Position numbers and translations under genes: made by a program. From positions 1 through 44,182 of the forward strand of contig CBDUKN010000021.1 in assembly GCA_965367815.1 (NCBI GenBank): DNA of 44,182 nucleotides, given 5' to 3'. Positions 4,582 to 42,673 of this stretch are shown here, piece by piece. Origin of the DNA: an uncultured Thermoprotei archaeon. Its GTDB lineage: Archaea > Thermoproteota > Thermoprotei > Thermofilales > B15-G2. Each line of letters begins with the position of its first letter. The stretch's first letter is position 1. Below the pieces are notes generated by a model, which saw nothing but the letters and a program-made list of their open reading frames with translations, did no database searches and was not told the origin of the DNA.

Positions 4582-5300
4582 CTATCTGTTGATCTCAAAG
4601 CCAGCTGACACTAGTAAAGGGTTTTGAAATGCTTTATCTAAGTACATGTATATTGTTACAACAGCAGTATTAAAAGATAATAATGGAACATCGAATTCCT
4701 TTGAGAAAAAACATTTAGCTTCTATTTCTTTTTCACTATATTCTTTTATTTCTTCTATTTTAGGTAAATATACTTCTATGCCATGTGCTGACATAAAACC
4801 TATGTTAGTAAAATTGATTTTCTTTAATCCTTTATTAACTATTTTTAATTTGAAGCGAGCTTCTCTCCTAGTAGGATATTTTGTTCTTCTTTAACTACTA
4901 TGTTTAAGTGTACTTTACTATACTTTACGCAGACTCCAGCTATTCTCGCCATAGTTCCTCTAGGTGTTTGGCTGGACTGACCCTCAAAGTATAGCGATAA
5001 ATAGTTGTCTGAAATAATGTTCCCTAAGATTACTCTGTACAGTTTTCTTTCCTCAAAGCATACTCTATTTTTGGAAAATACTTTCTCTGCAAAAGGATAT
5101 TTAACAAAAACTCTTCTACAAAAGTATTTTTCGAGAATCTATGAAGCCACATGTCTCTGCTCAAACTTCTTTTCCTTAAAATGATGGCTGGAATAAAGCC
5201 GTATTTTACGTAGAGGCGACGCGCTATTTTATTTTCAATACTTGTCATAAGGTACCGTATGCAGTACACGACGCCTTAGACCTCTTATCAATATATTTTC
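4582..5300 (-). pseudogene. degenerate C-terminal part of a GNAT acetyltransferase
   Basis: YLMTSIENKIARRLYVKYGF (GNAT motif B-like) followed by frameshifted fragments continuing to 4582. Confidence 0.55.
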
Positions 5301-5946
5301 ACGAACTAGTACCACTATCAATTATAACACTAAGGCTTCTTCACGAAGACATCTGGGTAATCATACTACTAGCAATAATACACTTCGCTCACACCACTAT
5401 CACAAAAGAATATAAACACCTATTGAGCCACTGCAACATAGTACTCACTTAATAGAACATGCCAAGGATTTTCTGCAATACTCCTCCTCAACAAAACTTC
5501 TGCAAGACTTAAGTAGCAAAGCTACTGAAACTCCCTAAGGTACTGGTATAGGTGTCATAAATCAGAGTACTAGCACGGCTGCGCGATAAAAAGCACTATA
5601 ATAGCTAAGTACTCCCACGACATATTCTTCTCCTTAAACTCATTACTCACACAGTCGCCGAGAAAAATAGACAATTGAATCATTTAAGTATAGTGCCTCT
5701 AGTCTTCTTCAAGTTCTTTTTCAATTTTCTGTGCTAGTTCTCTGTAGTAGCCTAGTGCTTCCTCAAGCTCCCTGTGCTCTTTAACTAAGTCTTCTAGCAC
5801 TGCGACAAGCTCTTTTACTTCAGCTAAAGCATTTCTCAAAGAATCTTCTCTACTAACTCCCTTAGCTTCCTCAAAATACTCTTAAATTTTCTCGGTAAAT
5901 AGACTACAAGATAGTATATCGTTAAACATATTTACTCTGAGAAATA

Positions 5947-6123
5947 AAATTATTTAGATGAACTAGAGCAAGCCTAGGCTTGCTCTAGGGAAACAGACCG
6001 ATGGCGAGGGATGAAGCTTATAGGGTTTCCCAAGCTAGTCTACGAAAGGGAGGCCCCGAAATGTTTAGTTTCTTTACCTCTTCTCTCATCCCCCGCTACC
6101 GTTTCTTCTGGAGCGATGGGGGT
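5947..6123 (+). ncRNA. conserved structured leader / left-end RNA or ssDNA element (copy 1)
   Basis: aligns with 39891-40067; three stems with compensatory changes. Confidence 0.7.
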
Positions 6124-6127
6124 GTCT

Positions 6128-7591
6128 ATGGGGCGGGGAGAGTTTGTTGAGATAATAAGAAGTAATGTTTTGAGAATTGAGGCTAGTAGTGAAGTAGAGG
6201 AGTTGTTGAAGAGTCTTCAAAGAGGGTTTAAGAAGTACTTTGATGTAGCGAATAATTTCATTAAACAGTATTATCGAATAAATCACAGGCTTCCGAGGCA
6301 AATAGATGTTTATAGGATTCTCAGGGAATATGGTGTATCTAGTACTGCTGCTAACGAGGTTTCAAAAAAGGTTCTTGAGGCATGGAAAAGCTACTTTGAG
6401 CTTGAGAAAAGAGGATTTAAGGCTAAGCCACCAATATTTAGGAATATTCCAGTGATTCTTCATAATCAGCAGTACAGGGTTTACGCTAGGGGAAAGGACA
6501 ATGAGTGGATTGCTGAGAAAATTGAGTTTTCTTTAAACGGGAAATGGGTTTCACTTAAAGTTAAAGGGAAGCTTAGGTGGATTCCGAGGCTCAATGAAGG
6601 ACTAGTGTTTTATATTAGTGGATTAAAGTGCCCTAGTATAAAGTTAAGATATTGTTTAATAGAAAATTACTTAGTTTTAGGAGAGAGATGTCTTAGTAAA
6701 AATAAGGCAGAGATTTTTCAGCAAAACAATAAGTGGTATTTTGTTTTCAGTGTTTCTTTGAAGATTCCATTGCTGATGCTGAAAGGAAGTGGTGTAGTAG
6801 GGATTGATGTTGGTGTAAGGAATCTTGTAGCGCTGGTCGGAGTCAGTAATAGTGGCGAGGCTTTTTCAATGCTTTTTAAAAGCGGTACTCTTAGAGCTTA
6901 CTGGCTTAAATGTGAGAAGCTTGCAAGAAGAAGGCAAAAGATTGCTTATCGGTATTTCTGGAGAGCGGTACATTGTGCTGAAAACGGTGATAGGGAGAAG
7001 GAAAGAGAATGTTTTTGGGAATATAGGAGGTTTTTGGAGAAAGCTGGACGGTTTAAGAGGAAAGCTAGAGAAGTAAGGAAGAAGGCTGTTAACCAGATGG
7101 CTAAACTGGTAGCAGAGTACTTGGCTTCTAGAGGTGTTTCGGTTGTTTATGTTGGTAATAGTGTTTGTAGAGCTGTTTCTGATGTAGATTTAATTGAAAG
7201 AATAGTATCAAAGCCTACTAAAGAGCTTCTTAGAGGATTCTTTGCTCCAAGACAGATTATTAAGGCTCTTCAGAGGCACTGTGAGGTTAGAGGAATTAGA
7301 GTAATTGAGATTGATGAAATGGGGACTTCTAGTGTTTGTCCAGTATGTGAGAGTAGGGTTGAGAGGAGGTATCGTGGACTAGTTGTTTGTAGAGAACACG
7401 GATGCTTTAATGCTGACTTAGTGGCAGCGTTCAATATTCTTAAAAGAAATACTAGTGTAGAGCTGAGGAAAGAAGATTTGAAGGAATTACTTAATTATCC
7501 TAAGACATATGTTTACTTAGTTAAAGAACAGAAGTGGGTTGAAAGAAAATATTTAGTTTCTTTACCTCCCGAAAGGGAGATACCTCACTAG
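6128..7591 (+). CDS. tnpB: TnpB RNA-guided endonuclease with rearranged RuvC-II (487 aa from ATG 6128)
   Basis: VVGIDVG (RuvC-I), YVGN, IDEMGTS, CPVC...RGLVVC-x2-H and NADLVAAFNI; GGGGTG RBS before 6128; the upstream in-frame extension runs through the structured leader. Confidence 0.9.
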   Translation: MGRGEFVEIIRSNVLRIEASSEVEELLKSLQRGFKKYFDVANNFIKQYYRINHRLPRQIDVYRILREYGVSSTAANEVSKKVLEAWKSYFELEKRGFKAKPPIFRNIPVILHNQQYRVYARGKDNEWIAEKIEFSLNGKWVSLKVKGKLRWIPRLNEGLVFYISGLKCPSIKLRYCLIENYLVLGERCLSKNKAEIFQQNNKWYFVFSVSLKIPLLMLKGSGVVGIDVGVRNLVALVGVSNSGEAFSMLFKSGTLRAYWLKCEKLARRRQKIAYRYFWRAVHCAENGDREKERECFWEYRRFLEKAGRFKRKAREVRKKAVNQMAKLVAEYLASRGVSVVYVGNSVCRAVSDVDLIERIVSKPTKELLRGFFAPRQIIKALQRHCEVRGIRVIEIDEMGTSSVCPVCESRVERRYRGLVVCREHGCFNADLVAAFNILKRNTSVELRKEDLKELLNYPKTYVYLVKEQKWVERKYLVSLPPEREIPH

Positions 7592-7668
7592 CCCCACATA
7601 GGGGTAACTTGCCTGACCCCCAGGCAGGCAATGAAAGGCCAGCTGGCCTAGAGCCGAAAGAGGGGTCC
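7561..7668 (+). ncRNA. putative omega-RNA scaffold / right end of element 1
   Basis: GC-rich hairpins; near-identical to 26882-26987 (minus) although the adjacent coding sequence has diverged. Confidence 0.75.
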
Positions 7669-7870
7669 TGAAGTCTGGATGACCATTAAATTCGCTATTT
7701 CAGCATAAGGCTTGTAAGCTAAGTCTAGCGTGACTTTTCCTAAGACTCTATCTTCCTCATCGATTGCTATTAAAACTTTAACATACTTTCTTGCTTTAAG
7801 CCAGTAGCCAACAAGTTTCTCTGAGAGTTTTCTCCGTATGCCTCGTATAGTTTAGTCATTTTACTAGCAT
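7667..7870 (-). pseudogene. N-terminal fragment of a GNAT acetyltransferase cut by the element 1 right end
   Basis: frameshifted reading gives KVLIAIDEEDRVLGKVTLDLAYKPYAEIANLMV-HPDFR, ending at the element boundary. Confidence 0.65.
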
Positions 7871-26883: not shown

Positions 26884-27175
26884 ACCCCCTCTTTCGGCTC
26901 TAGGCCAGCTGGCCTTTCATTGCCTGCCTGGGGGTCAGGCAAGTTACCCCTATGCGGGGCTAGTGGGGTATCTCCCTTTCGGGTAAAAAGTATTTAATTT
27001 AATTTTTAGGCACCCATTTCTGTTCTCTAATTAAGTAAACATATGTTGTAGGACTGTTAAGTAGGTTCTTTAATTCTTTTTCACTCAATTTAACATTAGT
27101 ATTTCCTCGTAAAATATTATATGCCGCTGCTAAATCCGCGTTAAAGCTTCCACATTTTTCGCACACAAAATAAGC
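26882..27175 (-). mobile_element. truncated TnpB element (C-terminal remnant 26999-27175 + omega-RNA 26882-26987)
   Basis: FVCEKCGSFNADLAAAYNILRGN...TYVYLIREQKWVPKN* is homologous to the end of TnpB1; RNA part near-identical to 7561-7668. Confidence 0.9.
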
Positions 27176-39446: not shown

Positions 39447-39870
39447 ATGAGAAAAAGAACTCTACTCCATTATTAGAGAAAAGTTCGAAGAACTCTTTAA
39501 ACTGAAAGGTTTTAAGGAAGTATATCTTGAAGAAACTCATACTGGAAAATTCAGCAATAAACTTAAAGAAAAATACCTGATTACATGCACATAGTATTTG
39601 TTTTTCTCAATGAAATAGCACCAGATATAACAGGCTTTGTTGAAAAGAGTACCAGGGATTTACTTCAACAGAATTTGTTGTAATTGAAGTCAAAACAAGA
39701 AAATAAAACTTGACCACATATACCAGGTCAAAAAGTACGCCGAACTACTTAATGCAACCTATGCATTTCTAGTATCAACAGAGAAAATACCAGTAGAAAT
39801 AAAAAGGCTATGTAAAAAAGTTTACTCGATCTTCTTGGCAAATGGACTACAAGAGAGTACACAATAAAGT
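39447..39870 (+). pseudogene. PD-(D/E)XK restriction-like nuclease, multiply frameshifted
   Basis: joined frames give EKELY...IAPDITGF...VVIEVK...IYQVKKYAELL. Confidence 0.65.
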
Positions 39871-39890
39871 ATTTATTTTTGATAATATAT

Positions 39891-40238
39891 AAATTATTTA
39901 GATGAACCGAGGGTAGCTGAGCTATCCTCGGGGAAACAGACCAATGTAAGGGATGAAGCTTATAGGGCTTCCCTAGCCTGTCGAGTAAAAGGGAGGCCCC
40001 GAAATGTTTATTTTCTTTACTTCTCCTCTCATCCCCCGCTACCGTGTTTTTCTGGAGCGATGGGGGATGGGAGGAGAGGAGCCCCGCGACCAAAATGAGC
40101 GGGGACTAGGGGAAACGGCTATAGCCGAATGCTCCCCTGCTCCTAAGGCATTTAGCTGATGAAGGGGTGATTCCGGGGGCCTTACAGTACACAAGTATAC
40201 AGTGTACGGTGCGCTGGGGGTCGTCACGGGGGTTTAGT
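39891..40238 (+). ncRNA. structured leader RNA (copy 2 of shared leader plus extra module)
   Basis: GC-rich stems in AT-rich context; 39891-40067 homologous to 5947-6123. Confidence 0.7.
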
Positions 40239-40339
40239 AAACAGTGTTCATTGATGTTTAGCCTATATACCGATATTTGATTGACTATATTGGTTTATTG
40301 TATGCAGTGTTTTTGAGTAATGTTTCAGAGGTACTAGAG

Positions 40340-40440
40340 CTCTCTGGGGGAGTGGAGCTTTCTCCCAGGGCTCCCGCCACCGTTTCTTTTGGGGCGATGG
40401 GGGCTCTGGGGGAGGCGATGAAACTCCCCCAGAGAGGTGA
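40340..40440 (+). promoter_or_regulatory. 5'-UTR hairpin with K-turn overlapping the Shine-Dalgarno GAGGTGA
   Basis: 14-bp stem 40340-40353/40423-40436; GGA-GC / GC-GAT-GAA K-turn pattern; SD at 40434-40440. Confidence 0.65.
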
Positions 40441-40444
40441 AAAT

Positions 40445-41629
40445 ATGAAAAAAGAAGTATTTGCAGCTTTTAGATTTAGAGTAAAGGTAAGAAAAGAGGA
40501 GGCGAGGAAGATATACGAGGTAATGAAAAGGTACCGAGAGAATATTAAGAAAATTAAGGTTCTAGTGAAGCTTCTGACAAAGCAGGGTTATAGCGAAGAA
40601 GAAGCGCTTAGGATTGCTGTTCAACGCTATAGGATGAAGAATTTGATTATACGTAATAGAGAGAAGTTGGTTGAAGCGTATATTAAGTCGAAGTGTTATC
40701 GAGCGGATTCATTAATTCTATTTAACAGATATGGCTACAAGTATACCTGCTATATAGGTTTGAAAAACAAGGCTTTCCTTAGAATTGGAGGCGAAATTAA
40801 CACATGGCTCCCAGTAAAGAGAAGCATATTCAAAGCTGTTAAGAAGAGGGAAGAGTGGGGCTGGAAACCAGTATTCATTATACTGAAGTTTCTTGGCTTT
40901 AGTAAGAGGAATGGATTATTTGAAGTCGCTTTGATATTCAAGGTTCCAGCGAAGAAGATTTCTTTAAGTGATGTTAAGAGTGCGTTAAGTGAGAATAGGC
41001 TTTCGGTAATTAGTATTGATATTAATGCTATTCATGGTACTTATACTGGTTTATTTAGAGTTCAGGGTAGTGAATTGAAGTTAATTAATGTTAGAAAAAC
41101 TAATACTAGCTGGCGTCTAGTGGAAAGACATATTGAAAGAATTTCAGAGCTTAAGAGTAAGCTTAGGAAGAAAGGATTGTCTCCAAGAGAGTTCAGAGAA
41201 CTAAGGCAACTTGAAAGAAGGATAAGAAACCTTATTCAGTATCCTAAGAGAAAGGGTCTCGGAGTTCTAAGAGAATTGATTAGGAGAGAACAGAAATTAG
41301 GTAGGGTTGTGGTTATTGCAGTAGAGAATATTGATAAAAGGGATATTGAAAAAATGTACAACAATACTAGTAGTGTTAATAGGGCTATTCACTTATTTAT
41401 GCAGGGATGGTTTAAGAAAGTAAAGTTCTTAGCTAGAATAGAGGGGGCGTTCTTCATGGTTGTCGATAAAAGTTGTTCTTCGAAACAGTGCCCAGTATGC
41501 GGTAAATTAATGAAGTTTATTGACAATAGATGGCTTTACTGTAGTCAATGTAGTAAAAGTTATCATAGAGACTTAGCTGCTTTGAGAAATTTAGCGAAAA
41601 GAGCATTAGAGAAAATAAAGGAAACATAA
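40445..41629 (+). CDS. tnpB: TnpB / Cas12f-like RNA-guided endonuclease (394 aa from ATG 40445)
   Basis: ISIDIN, IAVENI, SSKQCPVC...CSQC and HRDLAALRNL: D-E-D triad plus Zn finger; GAGGTGA RBS. Confidence 0.85.
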   Translation: MKKEVFAAFRFRVKVRKEEARKIYEVMKRYRENIKKIKVLVKLLTKQGYSEEEALRIAVQRYRMKNLIIRNREKLVEAYIKSKCYRADSLILFNRYGYKYTCYIGLKNKAFLRIGGEINTWLPVKRSIFKAVKKREEWGWKPVFIILKFLGFSKRNGLFEVALIFKVPAKKISLSDVKSALSENRLSVISIDINAIHGTYTGLFRVQGSELKLINVRKTNTSWRLVERHIERISELKSKLRKKGLSPREFRELRQLERRIRNLIQYPKRKGLGVLRELIRREQKLGRVVVIAVENIDKRDIEKMYNNTSSVNRAIHLFMQGWFKKVKFLARIEGAFFMVVDKSCSSKQCPVCGKLMKFIDNRWLYCSQCSKSYHRDLAALRNLAKRALEKIKET

Positions 41630-41634
41630 GACTT

Positions 41635-41805
41635 TTTACCTTAAAGAGCCTTCTAGGGACAATTGTCCCTAGAAGGGACGATATCTAGTCAGAACTGACC
41701 CCGTGACGACCCCCAGCCCCCGCGATGAAGGCGGGTGCTCCTCCTCTCGATTAGGGGGAGATGACCCCCTTAAAGGAGCTCCGCCCAACACGCGGGGAAA
41801 CAGAA
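41635..41805 (+). ncRNA. putative omega-RNA / right end of element 2
   Basis: 28-bp palindrome 41649-41676; nested stems CCCCGCG/CGCGGGG and GGCGG/CCGCC; GATGA motifs. Confidence 0.65.
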
Positions 41806-41824
41806 CATCGGAGTTGATCATCAC
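41806..41824 (-). pseudogene. orphan 5' half of a box C/D sRNA
   Basis: minus strand GTGATGA + 12-nt guide TCAACTCCGATG, with D' replaced by the element end. Confidence 0.55.
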
Positions 41825-41862
41825 TCAATTTCAAATATACGTTCTAACAAATTAGTATTTAA

Positions 41863-42378
41863 TTATAGTTTTTCTAGTCTTTTTCGCATCTCTAAGTATA
41901 CTTCAGTAGACAGCCTAAATCCACTTACTACAAGTCTATTTAGCAGCTCTAATGCTTTTGTCGATGAAATAAGTCCTTTTCTTACAGCCATGGTAATAAT
42001 GTATAAAGTACCATGAACTTCAATACCCAGCATACGCGCAGCGATCCGCCCTAGTTTGTCGTCAATAATTACATGGCAAGGCTTGTAGGCTAAAGCTAAC
42101 GCTAAAACTTCTGCCTCTCCTCTATCAAGACACGGAAAAAGACGTAGTATACGCTCGACTTCTCGAGAAGAAACCTCTAAAATAGATAATTGTCTACTAT
42201 CAACAGCTTTCTTTACGGCTATAGCGTCTTTGAATCCTTTTTCTAAGCCTTTAATTACAACCTCTCTATACACTTCTAGTGGAATGAGTACCTCTGTGTA
42301 AATGGATAAAAGAAGATTTAGGGCACAGGCTTTCGCTAAATAAATCAGAGGAGAAGAGTTAACTACTGCTCTCTTCAC
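41863..42378 (-). CDS. DUF3368 PIN-domain protein
   Basis: VVNSSPLI, LDRGEAE, IIDD and HGTL motifs. Confidence 0.9.
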   Translation of the reverse strand: MKRAVVNSSPLIYLAKACALNLLLSIYTEVLIPLEVYREVVIKGLEKGFKDAIAVKKAVDSRQLSILEVSSREVERILRLFPCLDRGEAEVLALALAYKPCHVIIDDKLGRIAARMLGIEVHGTLYIITMAVRKGLISSTKALELLNRLVVSGFRLSTEVYLEMRKRLEKL

Positions 42379-42673
42379 TTAAAGCCGCCTCAAAGTCTTC
42401 TTTAAGATCTCTTAGAGTATACTGAATAGTTACTCCATACTTTTCAAGCATATCTACTAACTCCCATAGACTAACACCAGCCAACCGTGCCGCTTTCCAG
42501 AGCGTAACTTTACCTTCAGAGTATAACTTTAAGGCAATCTTAATTTTTCGTTCTCTAACTCCTTCTTCAAGTATTTCTCTAATCACCTCTGCTTTATCTC
42601 TTCCCTCAAGTTCAGCTAGTTCCTCTAACTCTTTCCTAATTTTCTTTGGTACCCTAACAGACAGCACTTCCAT
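42359..42673 (-). CDS. UPF0175 family antitoxin with N-terminal RHH
   Basis: LSVRVPK and YSEGKVTLWKAARLAGVS motifs. Confidence 0.9.
   Translation of the reverse strand: MEVLSVRVPKKIRKELEELAELEGRDKAEVIREILEEGVRERKIKIALKLYSEGKVTLWKAARLAGVSLWELVDMLEKYGVTIQYTLRDLKEDFEAALSEESSS

What the first reader, a model, noticed from the sequence alone, without database searches (positions are those of the whole stretch)
5947..6123. Two very different TnpB nucleases share one covarying ~175-nt structured leader
Seen: 5947-6123 aligns closely with 39891-40067. The downstream proteins share little beyond RuvC/Zn motifs and differ in RuvC-II type, and their 3' RNAs are unrelated. Stem 1 changes sequence but stays paired (CTAGAGCAAGC/GCTTGCTCTAG vs CCGAGGGTAGC/GCTATCCTCGG). 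Stem 2 is GGGTTTCCC vs GGGCTTCCC against GGGAGGCCC. The linkers are invariant (TAGATGAAC, GGGAAACAGACC, GGGATGAAGCTTATA, CCCCGAAATGTTTA). Known: TnpB omega-RNA normally lies 3' of the gene, and GAUGA/GA motifs form L7Ae-binding K-turns in archaea. Inference: this is a conserved 5' RNA or ssDNA module acting as a common chassis into which different tnpB+omega-RNA cassettes are swapped. It could be a transposon left end, a tracr-like partner RNA or a ribozyme. G-U pairs on the + strand favour a single-stranded function on that strand.
Basis: partly seen in the sequence, partly recalled or inferred. Interest (0 to 1): 0.85.

Follow-up and report, generated by a model that had tools for sequence, protein, structure and literature searches.

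The report
Shared K-turn leader of selfish nucleases
Two barely related TnpB nuclease genes in this archaeal genome begin with the same folded RNA leader, which also precedes homing-endonuclease genes in related archaea and probably controls whether these selfish genes are translated.

Summary
Window 5883-6122 matches 39829-40066 at about 80% identity. Both lie upstream of TnpB genes that share only 24% identity over 168 residues. The segment matches no Rfam family.

It belongs to a small leader family with a fixed order:
- a TATA-like run, then about 25 nt;
- UAGAUGA;
- a covarying hairpin P1;
- a K-turn pattern (GA, C-stem, loop, C-stem, GAU, GA);
- a variable middle;
- a terminal hairpin that covers the G-rich ribosome-binding-like run before the start codon.

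A second leader type with the same order precedes all metagenomic relatives of TnpB-A that have upstream DNA. Covariance-model searches found the same 5' module in two other genomes of the class. One copy precedes a LAGLIDADG homing endonuclease gene.

Copy B is not adjacent to its gene. A 330-nt extension lies between them and holds 19 nt perfectly complementary to the element's own 3' omega-RNA. Family-A long forms hold 19-27 bp at the same place, matched to their own omega-RNA.

Best reading: a transcribed cis-regulatory 5' leader that is exchanged by recombination. Transcription, L7Ae binding and pairing with the omega-RNA are all inferred. No RNA data were available.

The parts
5883..5954 (+). 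AT-rich left part of element A, shared with copies B and C6. It holds a TATA-like run (ATATTTA) that starts about 26 nt before the predicted RNA start.
   Evidence: Homology boundary. A/T-run distance. The promoter role is inferred.
5955..5962 (+). 5' motif UAGAUGAA, the predicted start of the leader RNA. It is also the point where type-1 and type-2 leaders and different promoter regions are joined.
   Evidence: The motif or a close variant lies directly before P1 in 16 of 16 leaders examined.
5963..5988 (+). Hairpin P1 (11 bp, loop CUAG).
   Evidence: I7, 13/13 complementary; 6 of 11 pairs have changes on both sides; a P1 of 7-12 bp in 16 of 16 leaders.
5991..6019 (+). K-turn pattern: AAACA-GA-CC [GAUGGCGA] GG-GAU-GA-AGCUU.
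   Evidence: with chance rate. The K-turn definition comes from passages of PMC6298567. L7Ae binding was not tested.
6023..6056 (+). Stem 2 (GGGUUUCCC with GGGAGGCCC) and its loop.
   Evidence: Weakly supported: only one-sided changes.
6059..6080 (+). U-rich stretch that repeats, in direct orientation, the start of omega-RNA A (7547-7568; 21 of 22 identical).
   Evidence: D4. Meaning unknown.
6090..6124 (+). Terminal hairpin: CCCCCGCU, loop, AGC(GAU)GGGGG. It covers the G-rich Shine-Dalgarno-like GGGGGUG 4 nt before the ATG at 6128.
   Evidence: In copy A the fold is -19.3 kcal/mol, z -1.0.
6128..7591 (+). tnpB-A (487 aa, intact).
7545..7668 (+). Canonical 3' omega-RNA region of element A. Family homology ends at ...GAAAGAGGGGUC.
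39829..39898 (+). AT-rich left part and TATA-like run of element B.
39899..40066 (+). Type-1 leader, copy B. It holds UAGAUGAA at 39899-39906, P1 at 39907-39931, the K-turn pattern at about 39934-39961, and hairpin HP1 at 40033-40066 (extended stem 40022-40077).
   Evidence: (I4).
40067..40372 (+). Long-form extension: a GC-rich structured part followed by a conserved AT-rich part. It is homologous to the extensions of family-A long forms.
40213..40231 (+). Segment perfectly complementary (19 of 19) to omega-RNA B at 41699-41717.
   Evidence: (I2).
40340..40436 (+). Second terminal hairpin (HP2 core 40373-40403 inside a 14-bp outer stem). It abuts GAGGUGA and the ATG at 40445.
   Evidence: I5, D6.: -71.4 kcal/mol, z -7.6.
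40445..41629 (+). tnpB-B (394 aa from the ATG at 40445).
41630..41806 (+). 3' omega-RNA region of element B. It ends at ...GGGGAAACAGAAC and includes 41699-41717, the partner of 40213-40231.

Best explanation
The segment is the transcribed 5' leader of two non-autonomous tnpB insertion elements. It is one member of a small, undescribed family of archaeal leaders.

The family has a fixed order:
- a TATA-like box, then about 25 nt;
- 5'-UAGAUGA;
- a variable hairpin P1;
- a K-turn (GA, C-stem, loop, C-stem, 3-nt bulge that is usually GAU, GA);
- a variable middle;
- a terminal hairpin that buries the G-rich ribosome-binding-like run just before the start codon.

It most likely acts in cis as a gate on translation of selfish nuclease genes. 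The K-turn is a likely docking site for L7Ae.

Modules are exchanged by recombination at UAGAUGA and at the repeated terminal hairpin. That explains why two TnpBs with 24% identity, and LAGLIDADG genes in other genomes, carry the same leader.

In full-length tnpB elements the leader continues into a 330-nt extension. One segment of it pairs with the element's own omega-RNA.

Shown: conservation, covariation, the motif pattern, gene association and complementarity.
Inferred: transcription and its start, L7Ae binding, translational gating, and pairing in the cell.
For: Repeat and copies.
- The repeat is real and there are four type-1 copies in the genome.
- P1 covaries: 6 of 11 pairs change on both sides.

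Type-2 leader.
- It has the same order and precedes TnpB-A relatives in 10 of 10 metagenome loci that have upstream DNA.
- Its 47-pair consensus is 97.5% paired and 5 pairs change on both sides.
- Its covariation score is 0.193 against 0.158 in shuffles; 1 of 500 shuffles reached it.
- It has 38 G.U cells on the + strand.

K-turn and promoter signals.
- A K-turn pattern follows P1 in 16 of 16 leaders under the loose rule. The bulge is GAU in 10.
- The C-stem occurs in four sequence versions.
- Chance of the pattern in a 6-nt window is 5-12%.
- An A/T run starts 25-30 nt before the predicted RNA start in 11 of 16 leaders.

Terminal hairpins.
- They cover the GGGGGUG or GAGGUGA region.
- B HP2 folds at -71.4 kcal/mol (z -7.6) and C8 HP2 at -46.2 kcal/mol (z -5.6).

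Other genomes.
- The same 5' module lies before a LAGLIDADG gene in G018: PF14528 at E 4e-9, I-DmoI at E 1e-3.
- It also lies before a probable LAGLIDADG gene in G058.

Not coding.
- The frame that is open through leader A (from 6011) stops after 7 codons in copy B.

Precedent.
- L7Ae regulates its own mRNA through a 5'-UTR stem-loop with a GAU bulge and tandem G:A pairs (PMC6298567, passages).
Against: - No RNA data: no RNA run was listed. The transcript, its start and its strand are therefore inferred.
- The hairpin of copy A folds no better than shuffles (z -1.0). The whole leader A has z -2.1.
- Type-1 covariation rests on 4 copies that form about two haplotypes.
- The K-turn lies 100-450 nt from the start codon. 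Direct occlusion, as in the l7ae mRNA, does not apply.
- The assembly holds no 16S rRNA, so complementarity of GGGGGUG to the anti-Shine-Dalgarno sequence is recalled, not tested.
- Two of the extra-genomic model hits are weak (E 0.04-0.05) and were accepted by eye.
- In 5 of 7 type-2 leaders the pattern has AA where a standard K-turn has GA.
- The leader lies inside the repeated DNA unit, so a role as a DNA end is not excluded.
Confidence: 0.58

Rival explanations
1. Anti-omega or tracr-like partner RNA. The RNA made from the leader plus its extension (about 430 nt) pairs with the element's omega-RNA. It either blocks the omega-RNA's pseudoknot strands (copy-number or expression control) or forms a two-piece guide scaffold for TnpB.
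For: Extension against omega-RNA.
- 19 of 19 in element B (I2).
- 21, 19 and 27 bp in L020, L022 and L024; shuffles give a 95th percentile of 13.
- The segment sits at the same alignment position in both families but has a different sequence, matched to each family's own omega-RNA.

Type-2 leader against omega-RNA.
- A second 12-15 bp match is present, including a matching one-base loss on both sides in L022.

Specificity and ORF state.
- In 16 other TnpB loci of the class the longest inverted match is 8-12 nt, which is shuffle level.
- Type-2 long forms keep intact ORFs in 4 of 6. Type-2 short forms do so in 0 of 3.
Against: - The finding's own 175 nt (type 1) shows no such complementarity.
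- Element A lacks the extension yet has an intact gene and omega-RNA.
- The TnpB-B paralog on C15 has no leader at all.
- 9 of the 19-21 nt (CUGGGGGUC) are the same in both families, so the covariation rests on about 10 bp.
- Within family A, the changes in C8 and L026 weaken the pairing instead of being compensated.
- An inverted partial duplication of the right end could give the same pattern.
- No RNA data.
Confidence: 0.17
2. DNA-level transposon left end. P1 and its neighbours are single-strand DNA hairpins bound by an IS200/IS605-type transposase, and the RNA fold is incidental.
For: - The segment lies inside the repeated unit, about 70 nt from its left boundary.
- P1 is a perfect palindrome.
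- The three type-1 left flanks end in TACT (read by eye).
- The elements carry tnpB and a 3' omega-RNA, as IS1341-type elements do.
Against: - The genome holds no Y1 transposase. Its one resolvase-type gene is not next to a tnpB and has the catalytic domain first.
- No similar hairpin is found at the right ends.
- The same module precedes LAGLIDADG genes that are not in such elements.
- G.U pairs, the K-turn pattern and the hairpin over the start region are features of RNA.
- Different promoter regions are joined to the module exactly at UAGAUGA (L024).
Confidence: 0.12
3. A separate small RNA gene (C/D-box-like or other L7Ae-bound sRNA) that merely sits upstream of these genes and has its own function in trans.
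For: - UAGAUGA resembles a C box, and CAGA/CUGA with GAUGA resembles a D'/C' pair (box consensus recalled).
- Long forms have an AT-rich stretch after the structured part that could hold a second promoter.
Against: - No C/D family of Rfam matches. The best snoRNA-type hits score 11-15 bits against gathering scores of 42-55.
- There is no terminal D box or guide-length spacing.
- In short forms the leader runs straight into the start codon.
- It is always found in the sense orientation directly before a gene.
Confidence: 0.06
4. Self-splicing or endonuclease-spliced intron-like RNA (an archaeal counterpart of IStrons) that removes the element from host transcripts.
For: - The architecture resembles IStrons: a long structured 5' RNA, tnpB, and a 3' omega-RNA with interplay between the 5' and 3' parts (10.1101/2023.11.20.567912, passages).
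- LAGLIDADG genes are typical intron passengers (recalled).
Against: - No group I or group II intron match even at permissive thresholds.
- The RNA appears to start at an internal promoter, not at the element boundary.
- I saw no bulge-helix-bulge at the complementary segments when reading the sequences by eye.
- The LAGLIDADG loci lie between ordinary genes, not in rRNA.
Confidence: 0.03

Closest known systems
K-turn stem-loop in the 5' UTR of archaeal l7ae mRNA, an L7Ae translational off-switch (PMC6298567, passages; PMC5539422, listing and start of abstract only)
   Same: [quoted passage not shown] It gives protein-dependent control of ribosome access.
   Different: There the K-turn stem itself covers the ribosome binding site of one housekeeping gene. 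Here the K-turn is 100-450 nt upstream, a separate hairpin covers the start region, and the genes are selfish nucleases. Binding was not tested.
IS200 tnpA 5' UTR stem-loop that hides the Shine-Dalgarno sequence
   Same: A transposon-borne leader hairpin that sequesters the ribosome binding site of the element's own gene.
   Different: That case is bacterial, short, precedes tnpA rather than tnpB, and has no K-turn or P1 module. It is not shared with homing endonuclease genes.
IStrons: a group I intron in the left end of tnpB elements that competes with the omega-RNA (10.1101/2023.11.20.567912, passages)
   Same: A several-hundred-nt structured RNA in the left part of a tnpB element whose function interlocks with the omega-RNA in the right end.
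   Different: No intron model matches. There are no splice-site features. The system is archaeal. Here the interplay is plain complementarity.
tracrRNA of tracr-dependent type V (Cas12) systems (recalled)
   Same: A separately encoded RNA next to the nuclease gene, with a stretch complementary to the scaffold part of the guide RNA.
   Different: The omega-RNAs here look complete on their own. The pairing would compete with the omega-RNA's own hairpin. The 175-nt type-1 leader has no such stretch.
IscB omega-RNA, encoded upstream of the gene (PMC10691335, passage)
   Same: A structured RNA upstream of an IS200/IS605-superfamily nuclease gene.
   Different: The 5' end is not variable, so it is not guide-like: the RNA starts at a conserved motif inside the element. 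Rfam found no match. The proteins are TnpB, not IscB.

Membership tests
IS200/IS605-family (IS1341-type) tnpB element | TnpB gene with RuvC-like and zinc-ribbon domains | tested here: met
   PF07282 for both genes and PF01385 for A. NF040570 scores 99.1 bits for A, just under its cut-off of 100.
IS200/IS605-family (IS1341-type) tnpB element | Structured omega-RNA at the 3' end, with homology ending sharply at the right end | tested here: met
   Family-A copies end at ...GGGGUC and family-B copies at ...GAAACAGAnC. Flanks differ beyond that point.
IS200/IS605-family (IS1341-type) tnpB element | Y1 transposase TnpA in the element or elsewhere in the genome | tested here: not met
   PF01797 gives 0 matches in the genome, which is 99.4% complete; the control search rang in 6 named genomes.
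IS200/IS605-family (IS1341-type) tnpB element | Similar subterminal hairpins at the left and right ends | tested here: not met
   The repeat search within each element found no right-end copy of P1.
IS200/IS605-family (IS1341-type) tnpB element | Conserved short target motif abutting the left end | tested here: inconclusive
   The 3 type-1 copies all have TACT at the approximate boundary. The boundary is not exact and no empty site was found.
K-turn (L7Ae-binding RNA motif) | [quoted passage not shown] | tested here: met
   The pattern follows P1 in 16 of 16 leaders under a loose rule. The standard GA on the non-bulged strand is present in 11 of 16 and AA in 5. The C-stem covaries. Chance is 5-12% per 6-nt window.
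K-turn (L7Ae-binding RNA motif) | Binding by L7Ae and a kinked geometry | not testable with these tools
   Needs EMSA, RIP or a solved structure.
C/D box sRNA | C, D, C' and D' boxes with guide-length spacers, and a match to the family models | tested here: not met
   Rfam gave nothing at gathering scores. The best snoRNA-type hits score 11-15 bits against cut-offs of 42-55.
tracrRNA-like partner of a guide RNA | Stretch complementary to the scaffold of the guide RNA | tested here: not met
   For the 175-nt type-1 leader there is no run of 10 or more in A and nothing above shuffles in B. The feature is met only by the long-form extension (19-27 bp) and by the type-2 leader (12-15 bp).
Group I intron / IStron | Match to the intron core model, and splice-site features | tested here: not met
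   No Intron_gpI hit at E up to 10 on the two window regions, nor at E up to 0.1 on 5 loci.
IscB-type 5' omega-RNA | Upstream scaffold with a variable guide at its 5' end, outside the element | tested here: not met
   The 5' end is the conserved UAGAUGA, about 70 nt inside the repeat. Rfam gave no match.

The most novel reading that the evidence does not exclude
Full-length elements of this family make a roughly 430-nt, K-turn-bearing 5' RNA. Its 3' part, and in type-2 leaders a second segment, base-pairs with the element's own omega-RNA at the strands that form the omega-RNA's hairpin and pseudoknot.

This would be a natural anti-omega-RNA, giving copy-number or expression control of an RNA-guided nuclease. 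Alternatively it would be a two-piece guide scaffold, an intermediate between the single omega-RNA of TnpB and the tracrRNA:crRNA pair of Cas12.

The same leader chassis would then be a general control device that hyperthermophilic archaea, or their mobile elements, place in front of homing nucleases of unrelated kinds.
Probability: 0.2. Interest if true: 0.85.

Novelty: new variant of a known kind. Interest (0 to 1): 0.62.

Why it matters
TnpB is the ancestor of Cas12 and a compact genome editor. How its expression and its guide RNA are controlled in native hosts is poorly known, above all in archaea, where tnpB genes are most common (PMC10691335, passage).

A conserved leader shared by TnpB and LAGLIDADG genes would show a common control point for selfish nucleases. 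If L7Ae binds it, a core RNA-binding protein of the host is linked to the control of mobile elements.

The matched complementarity between the 5' extension and the omega-RNA gives a testable candidate for RNA-level regulation of an omega-RNA, or for a split-guide stage in Cas12 evolution.

The family is small. It was found in 3 of 120 genomes of the class and in hot-spring-type metagenome contigs. Its reach may therefore be narrow.

Tried and rejected
Searches that found nothing useful.
- Rfam at gathering scores on the whole window.
- Rfam at permissive E-values on both copies, on 5 related loci and on L184. Only chance-level miRNA or snoRNA hits, far below the gathering scores.
- Plasmid and phage collections, distant mode: no match.
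- Viral contigs with a degenerate 20-nt leader motif: none.
- Genome contigs with TnpB-A as a single protein: 68 pattern hits, none confirmed.
- Genome contigs with a gapped hairpin pattern: 117 or more chance hits. Uninformative; my pattern was too loose.
- RNA evidence: no RNA holder was listed for window 39700-41950.
- Model R1 gave a hit in G104 that lies in AT-rich coding DNA. I judged it false.

Analyses that did not hold up.
- RNAduplex of whole leaders against whole 3' ends gave energies inside the shuffle range and meaningless long structures (after a timeout).
- The idea that element A is a simple insertion into one gene was rejected. The GNAT gene is split, but by a block (5267-7680) larger than the repeat.
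- A bulge-helix-bulge at the complementary segments: I looked by eye only and saw none.
- Anti-Shine-Dalgarno check: not possible, because the assembly holds no SSU rRNA.
- Complementarity between 5' and 3' parts in the two LAGLIDADG loci: at most 11 nt, within shuffles.

Literature.
- Six searches listed no paper describing a 5' leader RNA, a K-turn or a 5'-3' pairing for tnpB elements.
- The library lacks most subscription journals. ISfinder could not be consulted. Supplements were not seen.
Full report
OBSERVATION

The two stretches are homologous.
- Window 5890-6130 finds 39833-40066 at 80% identity, E 6e-48.
- Window 5947-6135 finds 39891-40066 at 83%.
- With a shorter word the match runs 5886-6122 against 39829-40066.

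Both copies lie upstream of TnpB-type genes.
- PF07282 matches both, and PF01385 matches the first.
- NCBIfam guided_TnpB scores 99.1 bits for A. B gets only weak IS607/IS200 TnpB hits.
- The two proteins share 24% identity over 168 residues, E 0.001.

No Rfam family matches at gathering scores, and nothing credible appears at permissive thresholds.

One correction matters. In copy A the leader runs straight into the gene, whose ATG is at 6128. In copy B about 380 nt (40067-40444) separate the leader from the ATG at 40445.

MORE COPIES AND A SECOND LEADER TYPE

The genome has 37 contigs, 2.45 Mb and 38.6% GC.
- TnpB-A paralogs lie on contigs C26, C8, C5, C7, C4 and C27.
- One TnpB-B paralog lies on C15.

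Reading their upstream DNA shows four type-1 leaders:
- A, before TnpB-A;
- B, before TnpB-B;
- a divergent copy on C27, before TnpB-A;
- a truncated copy on C6. It is fused to a fragment 37% identical to TnpB-B residues 102-141, E 9e-5.

C7, C8, C4 and C26 carry a second leader, type 2. It shares only three things with type 1: the 5' UAGAUGA, a hairpin directly after it, and the terminal hairpin. The C15 paralog has no leader.

A metagenome scan with a TnpB-A alignment returned 11 loci.
- Ten have upstream DNA.
- All ten carry the type-2 leader, and none carries type 1.

ANATOMY

I examined 16 leaders: 4 type 1, 7 type 2 and 5 from other genomes. The order is constant.

(i) A/T run.
- A run of at least 6 A/T starts 25-30 nt before the predicted RNA start in 11 of 16.

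(ii) UAGAUGA or a close variant.

(iii) Hairpin P1.
- It has 7-12 bp in 16 of 16, and its sequence differs between lineages.
- In the 4 type-1 copies, 6 of 11 pairs change on both sides and stay paired.

(iv) K-turn pattern, 1-11 nt after P1.
- The pattern is (G/A)A, a 2-5 bp C-stem, a loop, the other C-stem arm, three bases, then GA.
- The three bases are GAU in 10, AGU in 2, AAU in 1 and CAU in 1. They are unclear in the degenerate C6 copy and in C27.
- The non-bulged strand has GA in 11 and AA in 5.
- The C-stem occurs as CC/GG, CCC/GGG, GC/GC and GAGCC/GGCUC.
[quoted passage not shown] It also fits the GAU-bulge stem-loops of l7ae leaders (PMC6298567, passages).
- My rule is loose. It hits 0.8-2% of genome positions, which gives 5-12% per 6-nt window. 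The weight therefore lies in its recurrence at one place in unlike sequences.

(v) A variable middle.

(vi) A terminal hairpin.
- Its form is CCCCC-GCU, loop, AGC-(GAU)-GGGGG. The 3' arm is the G-rich GGGGGUG, 4-9 nt before the start codon.
- In long forms the hairpin is much longer and swallows the start codon. C8 HP2 folds at -46.2 kcal/mol (z -5.6) and B 40336-40450 at -71.4 (z -7.6).
- In copy A it is modest: -19.3 kcal/mol, z -1.0.

IS IT RNA, AND ON WHICH STRAND?

For the type-2 leader (8 sequences, 7 distinct), one search gives these figures.
- The 47-pair consensus is 97.5% paired.
- 5 pairs change on both sides; 20 of 500 shuffles reach that.
- The covariation score is 0.193 against 0.158; 1 of 500 shuffles reaches it.
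- Versions with the 3' partner slid by 1-3 columns fall to 36-53% paired.
- 38 cells are G.U on the + strand, including one pair that is G.U in all 7. These would be C.A on the other strand.

The structure was predicted on the + strand, so these figures lean towards it.

The frame that is open through leader A stops after 7 codons in copy B. The leader is therefore not coding. No RNA run could be listed, so transcription is inferred.

LONG AND SHORT FORMS

Elements B, C8, C27, L020/21, L022, L024/25, L026 and L027 carry a roughly 330-nt extension between a first terminal hairpin (HP1) and a second copy (HP2) before the gene. The extension has a GC-rich folded part and then a conserved AT-rich part.

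The folded part has 58 predicted pairs, 14 of them with changes on both sides.

Short forms (A, C7/L028, L029, L030) look like deletions between the two hairpin copies.

ORF state:
- Type-2 long forms: 4 of 6 distinct copies have an intact ORF.
- Type-2 short forms: 0 of 3 are intact.
- The type-1 short form A is intact.

The numbers are small.

LINK TO THE OMEGA-RNA

Both families have an ordinary structured 3' region whose homology stops sharply...GGGGUC in family A and ...GAAACAGAnC in family B.

Extension against omega-RNA.
- In B, 40213-40231 is perfectly complementary to 41699-41717 (19 of 19).
- In family A the equivalent position of the extension pairs with the family's own omega-RNA over 21 bp (L020), 19 bp (L022) and 27 bp with 2 G.U (L024).
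- In C8 only 11 bp remain.
- The shuffle 95th percentile is 12-14.

Type-2 leader against omega-RNA.
- A second stretch pairs with the 5' part of omega-RNA A over 12-15 bp.
- In L022 one base is missing on both sides.

Specificity.
- Sixteen other TnpB loci of the class gave longest inverted matches of 8-12 nt, equal to shuffles. Four further loci, and L002, were dropped for lack of flank.

Caveats.
- 9 of the paired bases are the same in both families.
- Within family A no change is compensated.
- The type-1 leader of the finding has no such stretch.

BEYOND tnpB

A covariance model of the type-1 leader (R1) and one of its first 74 positions (R2) were run over the 120 genomes of the class.
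- R1 matched G000, G058 and G104; I judged the G104 hit false.
- R2 matched G000 (4 hits), G058 and G018.
- A direct search of four genomes gave 3 hits in G058, 2 in G018 and none in the congener G001, which is 85% complete.
- A sample of 151 genomes of the phylum gave hits only in the window's own genome.

By eye, the five extra copies all show the hairpin and the K-turn pattern. Their downstream genes are as follows.
- G018:C28: a LAGLIDADG protein. PF14528 at E 4e-9, above its cut-off; I-DmoI at E 1e-3.
- G058:C6: a 347-aa protein with two LAGLIDADG-like motifs but only weak scores, E 0.06-0.1.
- G058:C26: a 130-aa protein of no family.
- Two copies run off their contigs.

The LAGLIDADG loci show no complementarity between their 5' and 3' parts.

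WHAT IT IS NOT

- No Y1 transposase is present in the genome.
- The one resolvase-type gene is not beside a tnpB.
- No hairpin like P1 lies at the right ends.
- No intron model matches.

READING

The best-supported account is a transcribed, cis-acting 5' leader family that gates translation of selfish nuclease genes.
- It probably holds an L7Ae site.
- It is exchanged between genes by recombination at UAGAUGA and at the hairpin repeats. L024, for instance, joins a type-1-like promoter region to a type-2 leader exactly at that motif.
- In tnpB elements the leader grew an extension matched to the omega-RNA.

That last point is the most novel and the least certain.

Six literature searches listed nothing comparable.

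Noticed in passing
window 4594-5266 and 7681-7827, minus strand: These are two parts of one GNAT-like gene, whose homolog in G068 is 334 aa. The block that separates them (5267-7680) is larger than the repeated tnpB element, and 5267-5882 is unique DNA of unknown origin.
   Followed up: partly
window 26886-27172, minus strand: A solo remnant: the last ~68 codons of a TnpB-A-like gene plus an omega-A-like tail, with no gene body or leader.
   Followed up: no
window 7620-7655 and relatives: The omega-RNA of family A holds a canonical-looking K-turn pattern (GGC-AAU-GA-AAGGCC ... GGCCUA-GA-GCC). L7Ae might therefore also bind the guide RNA. Read by eye only.
   Followed up: no
L005/L028, L029 and L030, about 250-350 nt upstream of the type-2 leader: Another conserved GC-rich long hairpin (...CUAUUGCUUCUGAGAC ... 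GUUUAGAAGCAAUAG...) recurs upstream of several type-2 elements. It has no explanation.
   Followed up: no
G000 contigs C4, C7 and C15, and L029, upstream of the elements, minus strand: A short paralogous ORF (...DEWLEYRLPKEFKVEGKVLGSWI...) recurs next to four tnpB elements of both families. It is either a preferred target or part of a larger unit.
   Followed up: no
L195 1592-2656 (G018:C28) and L184 1775-2818 (G058:C6): Free-standing LAGLIDADG-type genes between ordinary genes, each with its own TATA-like box and the same leader type. The G018 protein has two N-terminal helix-turn-helix regions.
   Followed up: partly
G000 contig C5, last ~70 bases: The contig end beside a TnpB-A paralog reads like a sequencing adaptor, so this end of the assembly is an artefact.
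   Followed up: no
window 41863-42673, minus strand: A DUF3368 (PIN-like) ORF overlaps a small upstream ORF directly to the right of element B. It looks like a toxin-antitoxin pair.
   Followed up: no
whole assembly G000: No SSU rRNA gene was found, although the assembly is 99.4% complete by marker genes. The rRNA operon is probably unassembled.
   Followed up: no
window 6059-6080 with 7547-7568, and 39929-39943 with 41793-41807: The type-1 leader and the 3' omega-RNA regions share short direct repeats: 21 of 22 in A, and GGGGAAACAGAnC in B. This hints at past recombination between the ends of the elements.
   Followed up: partly
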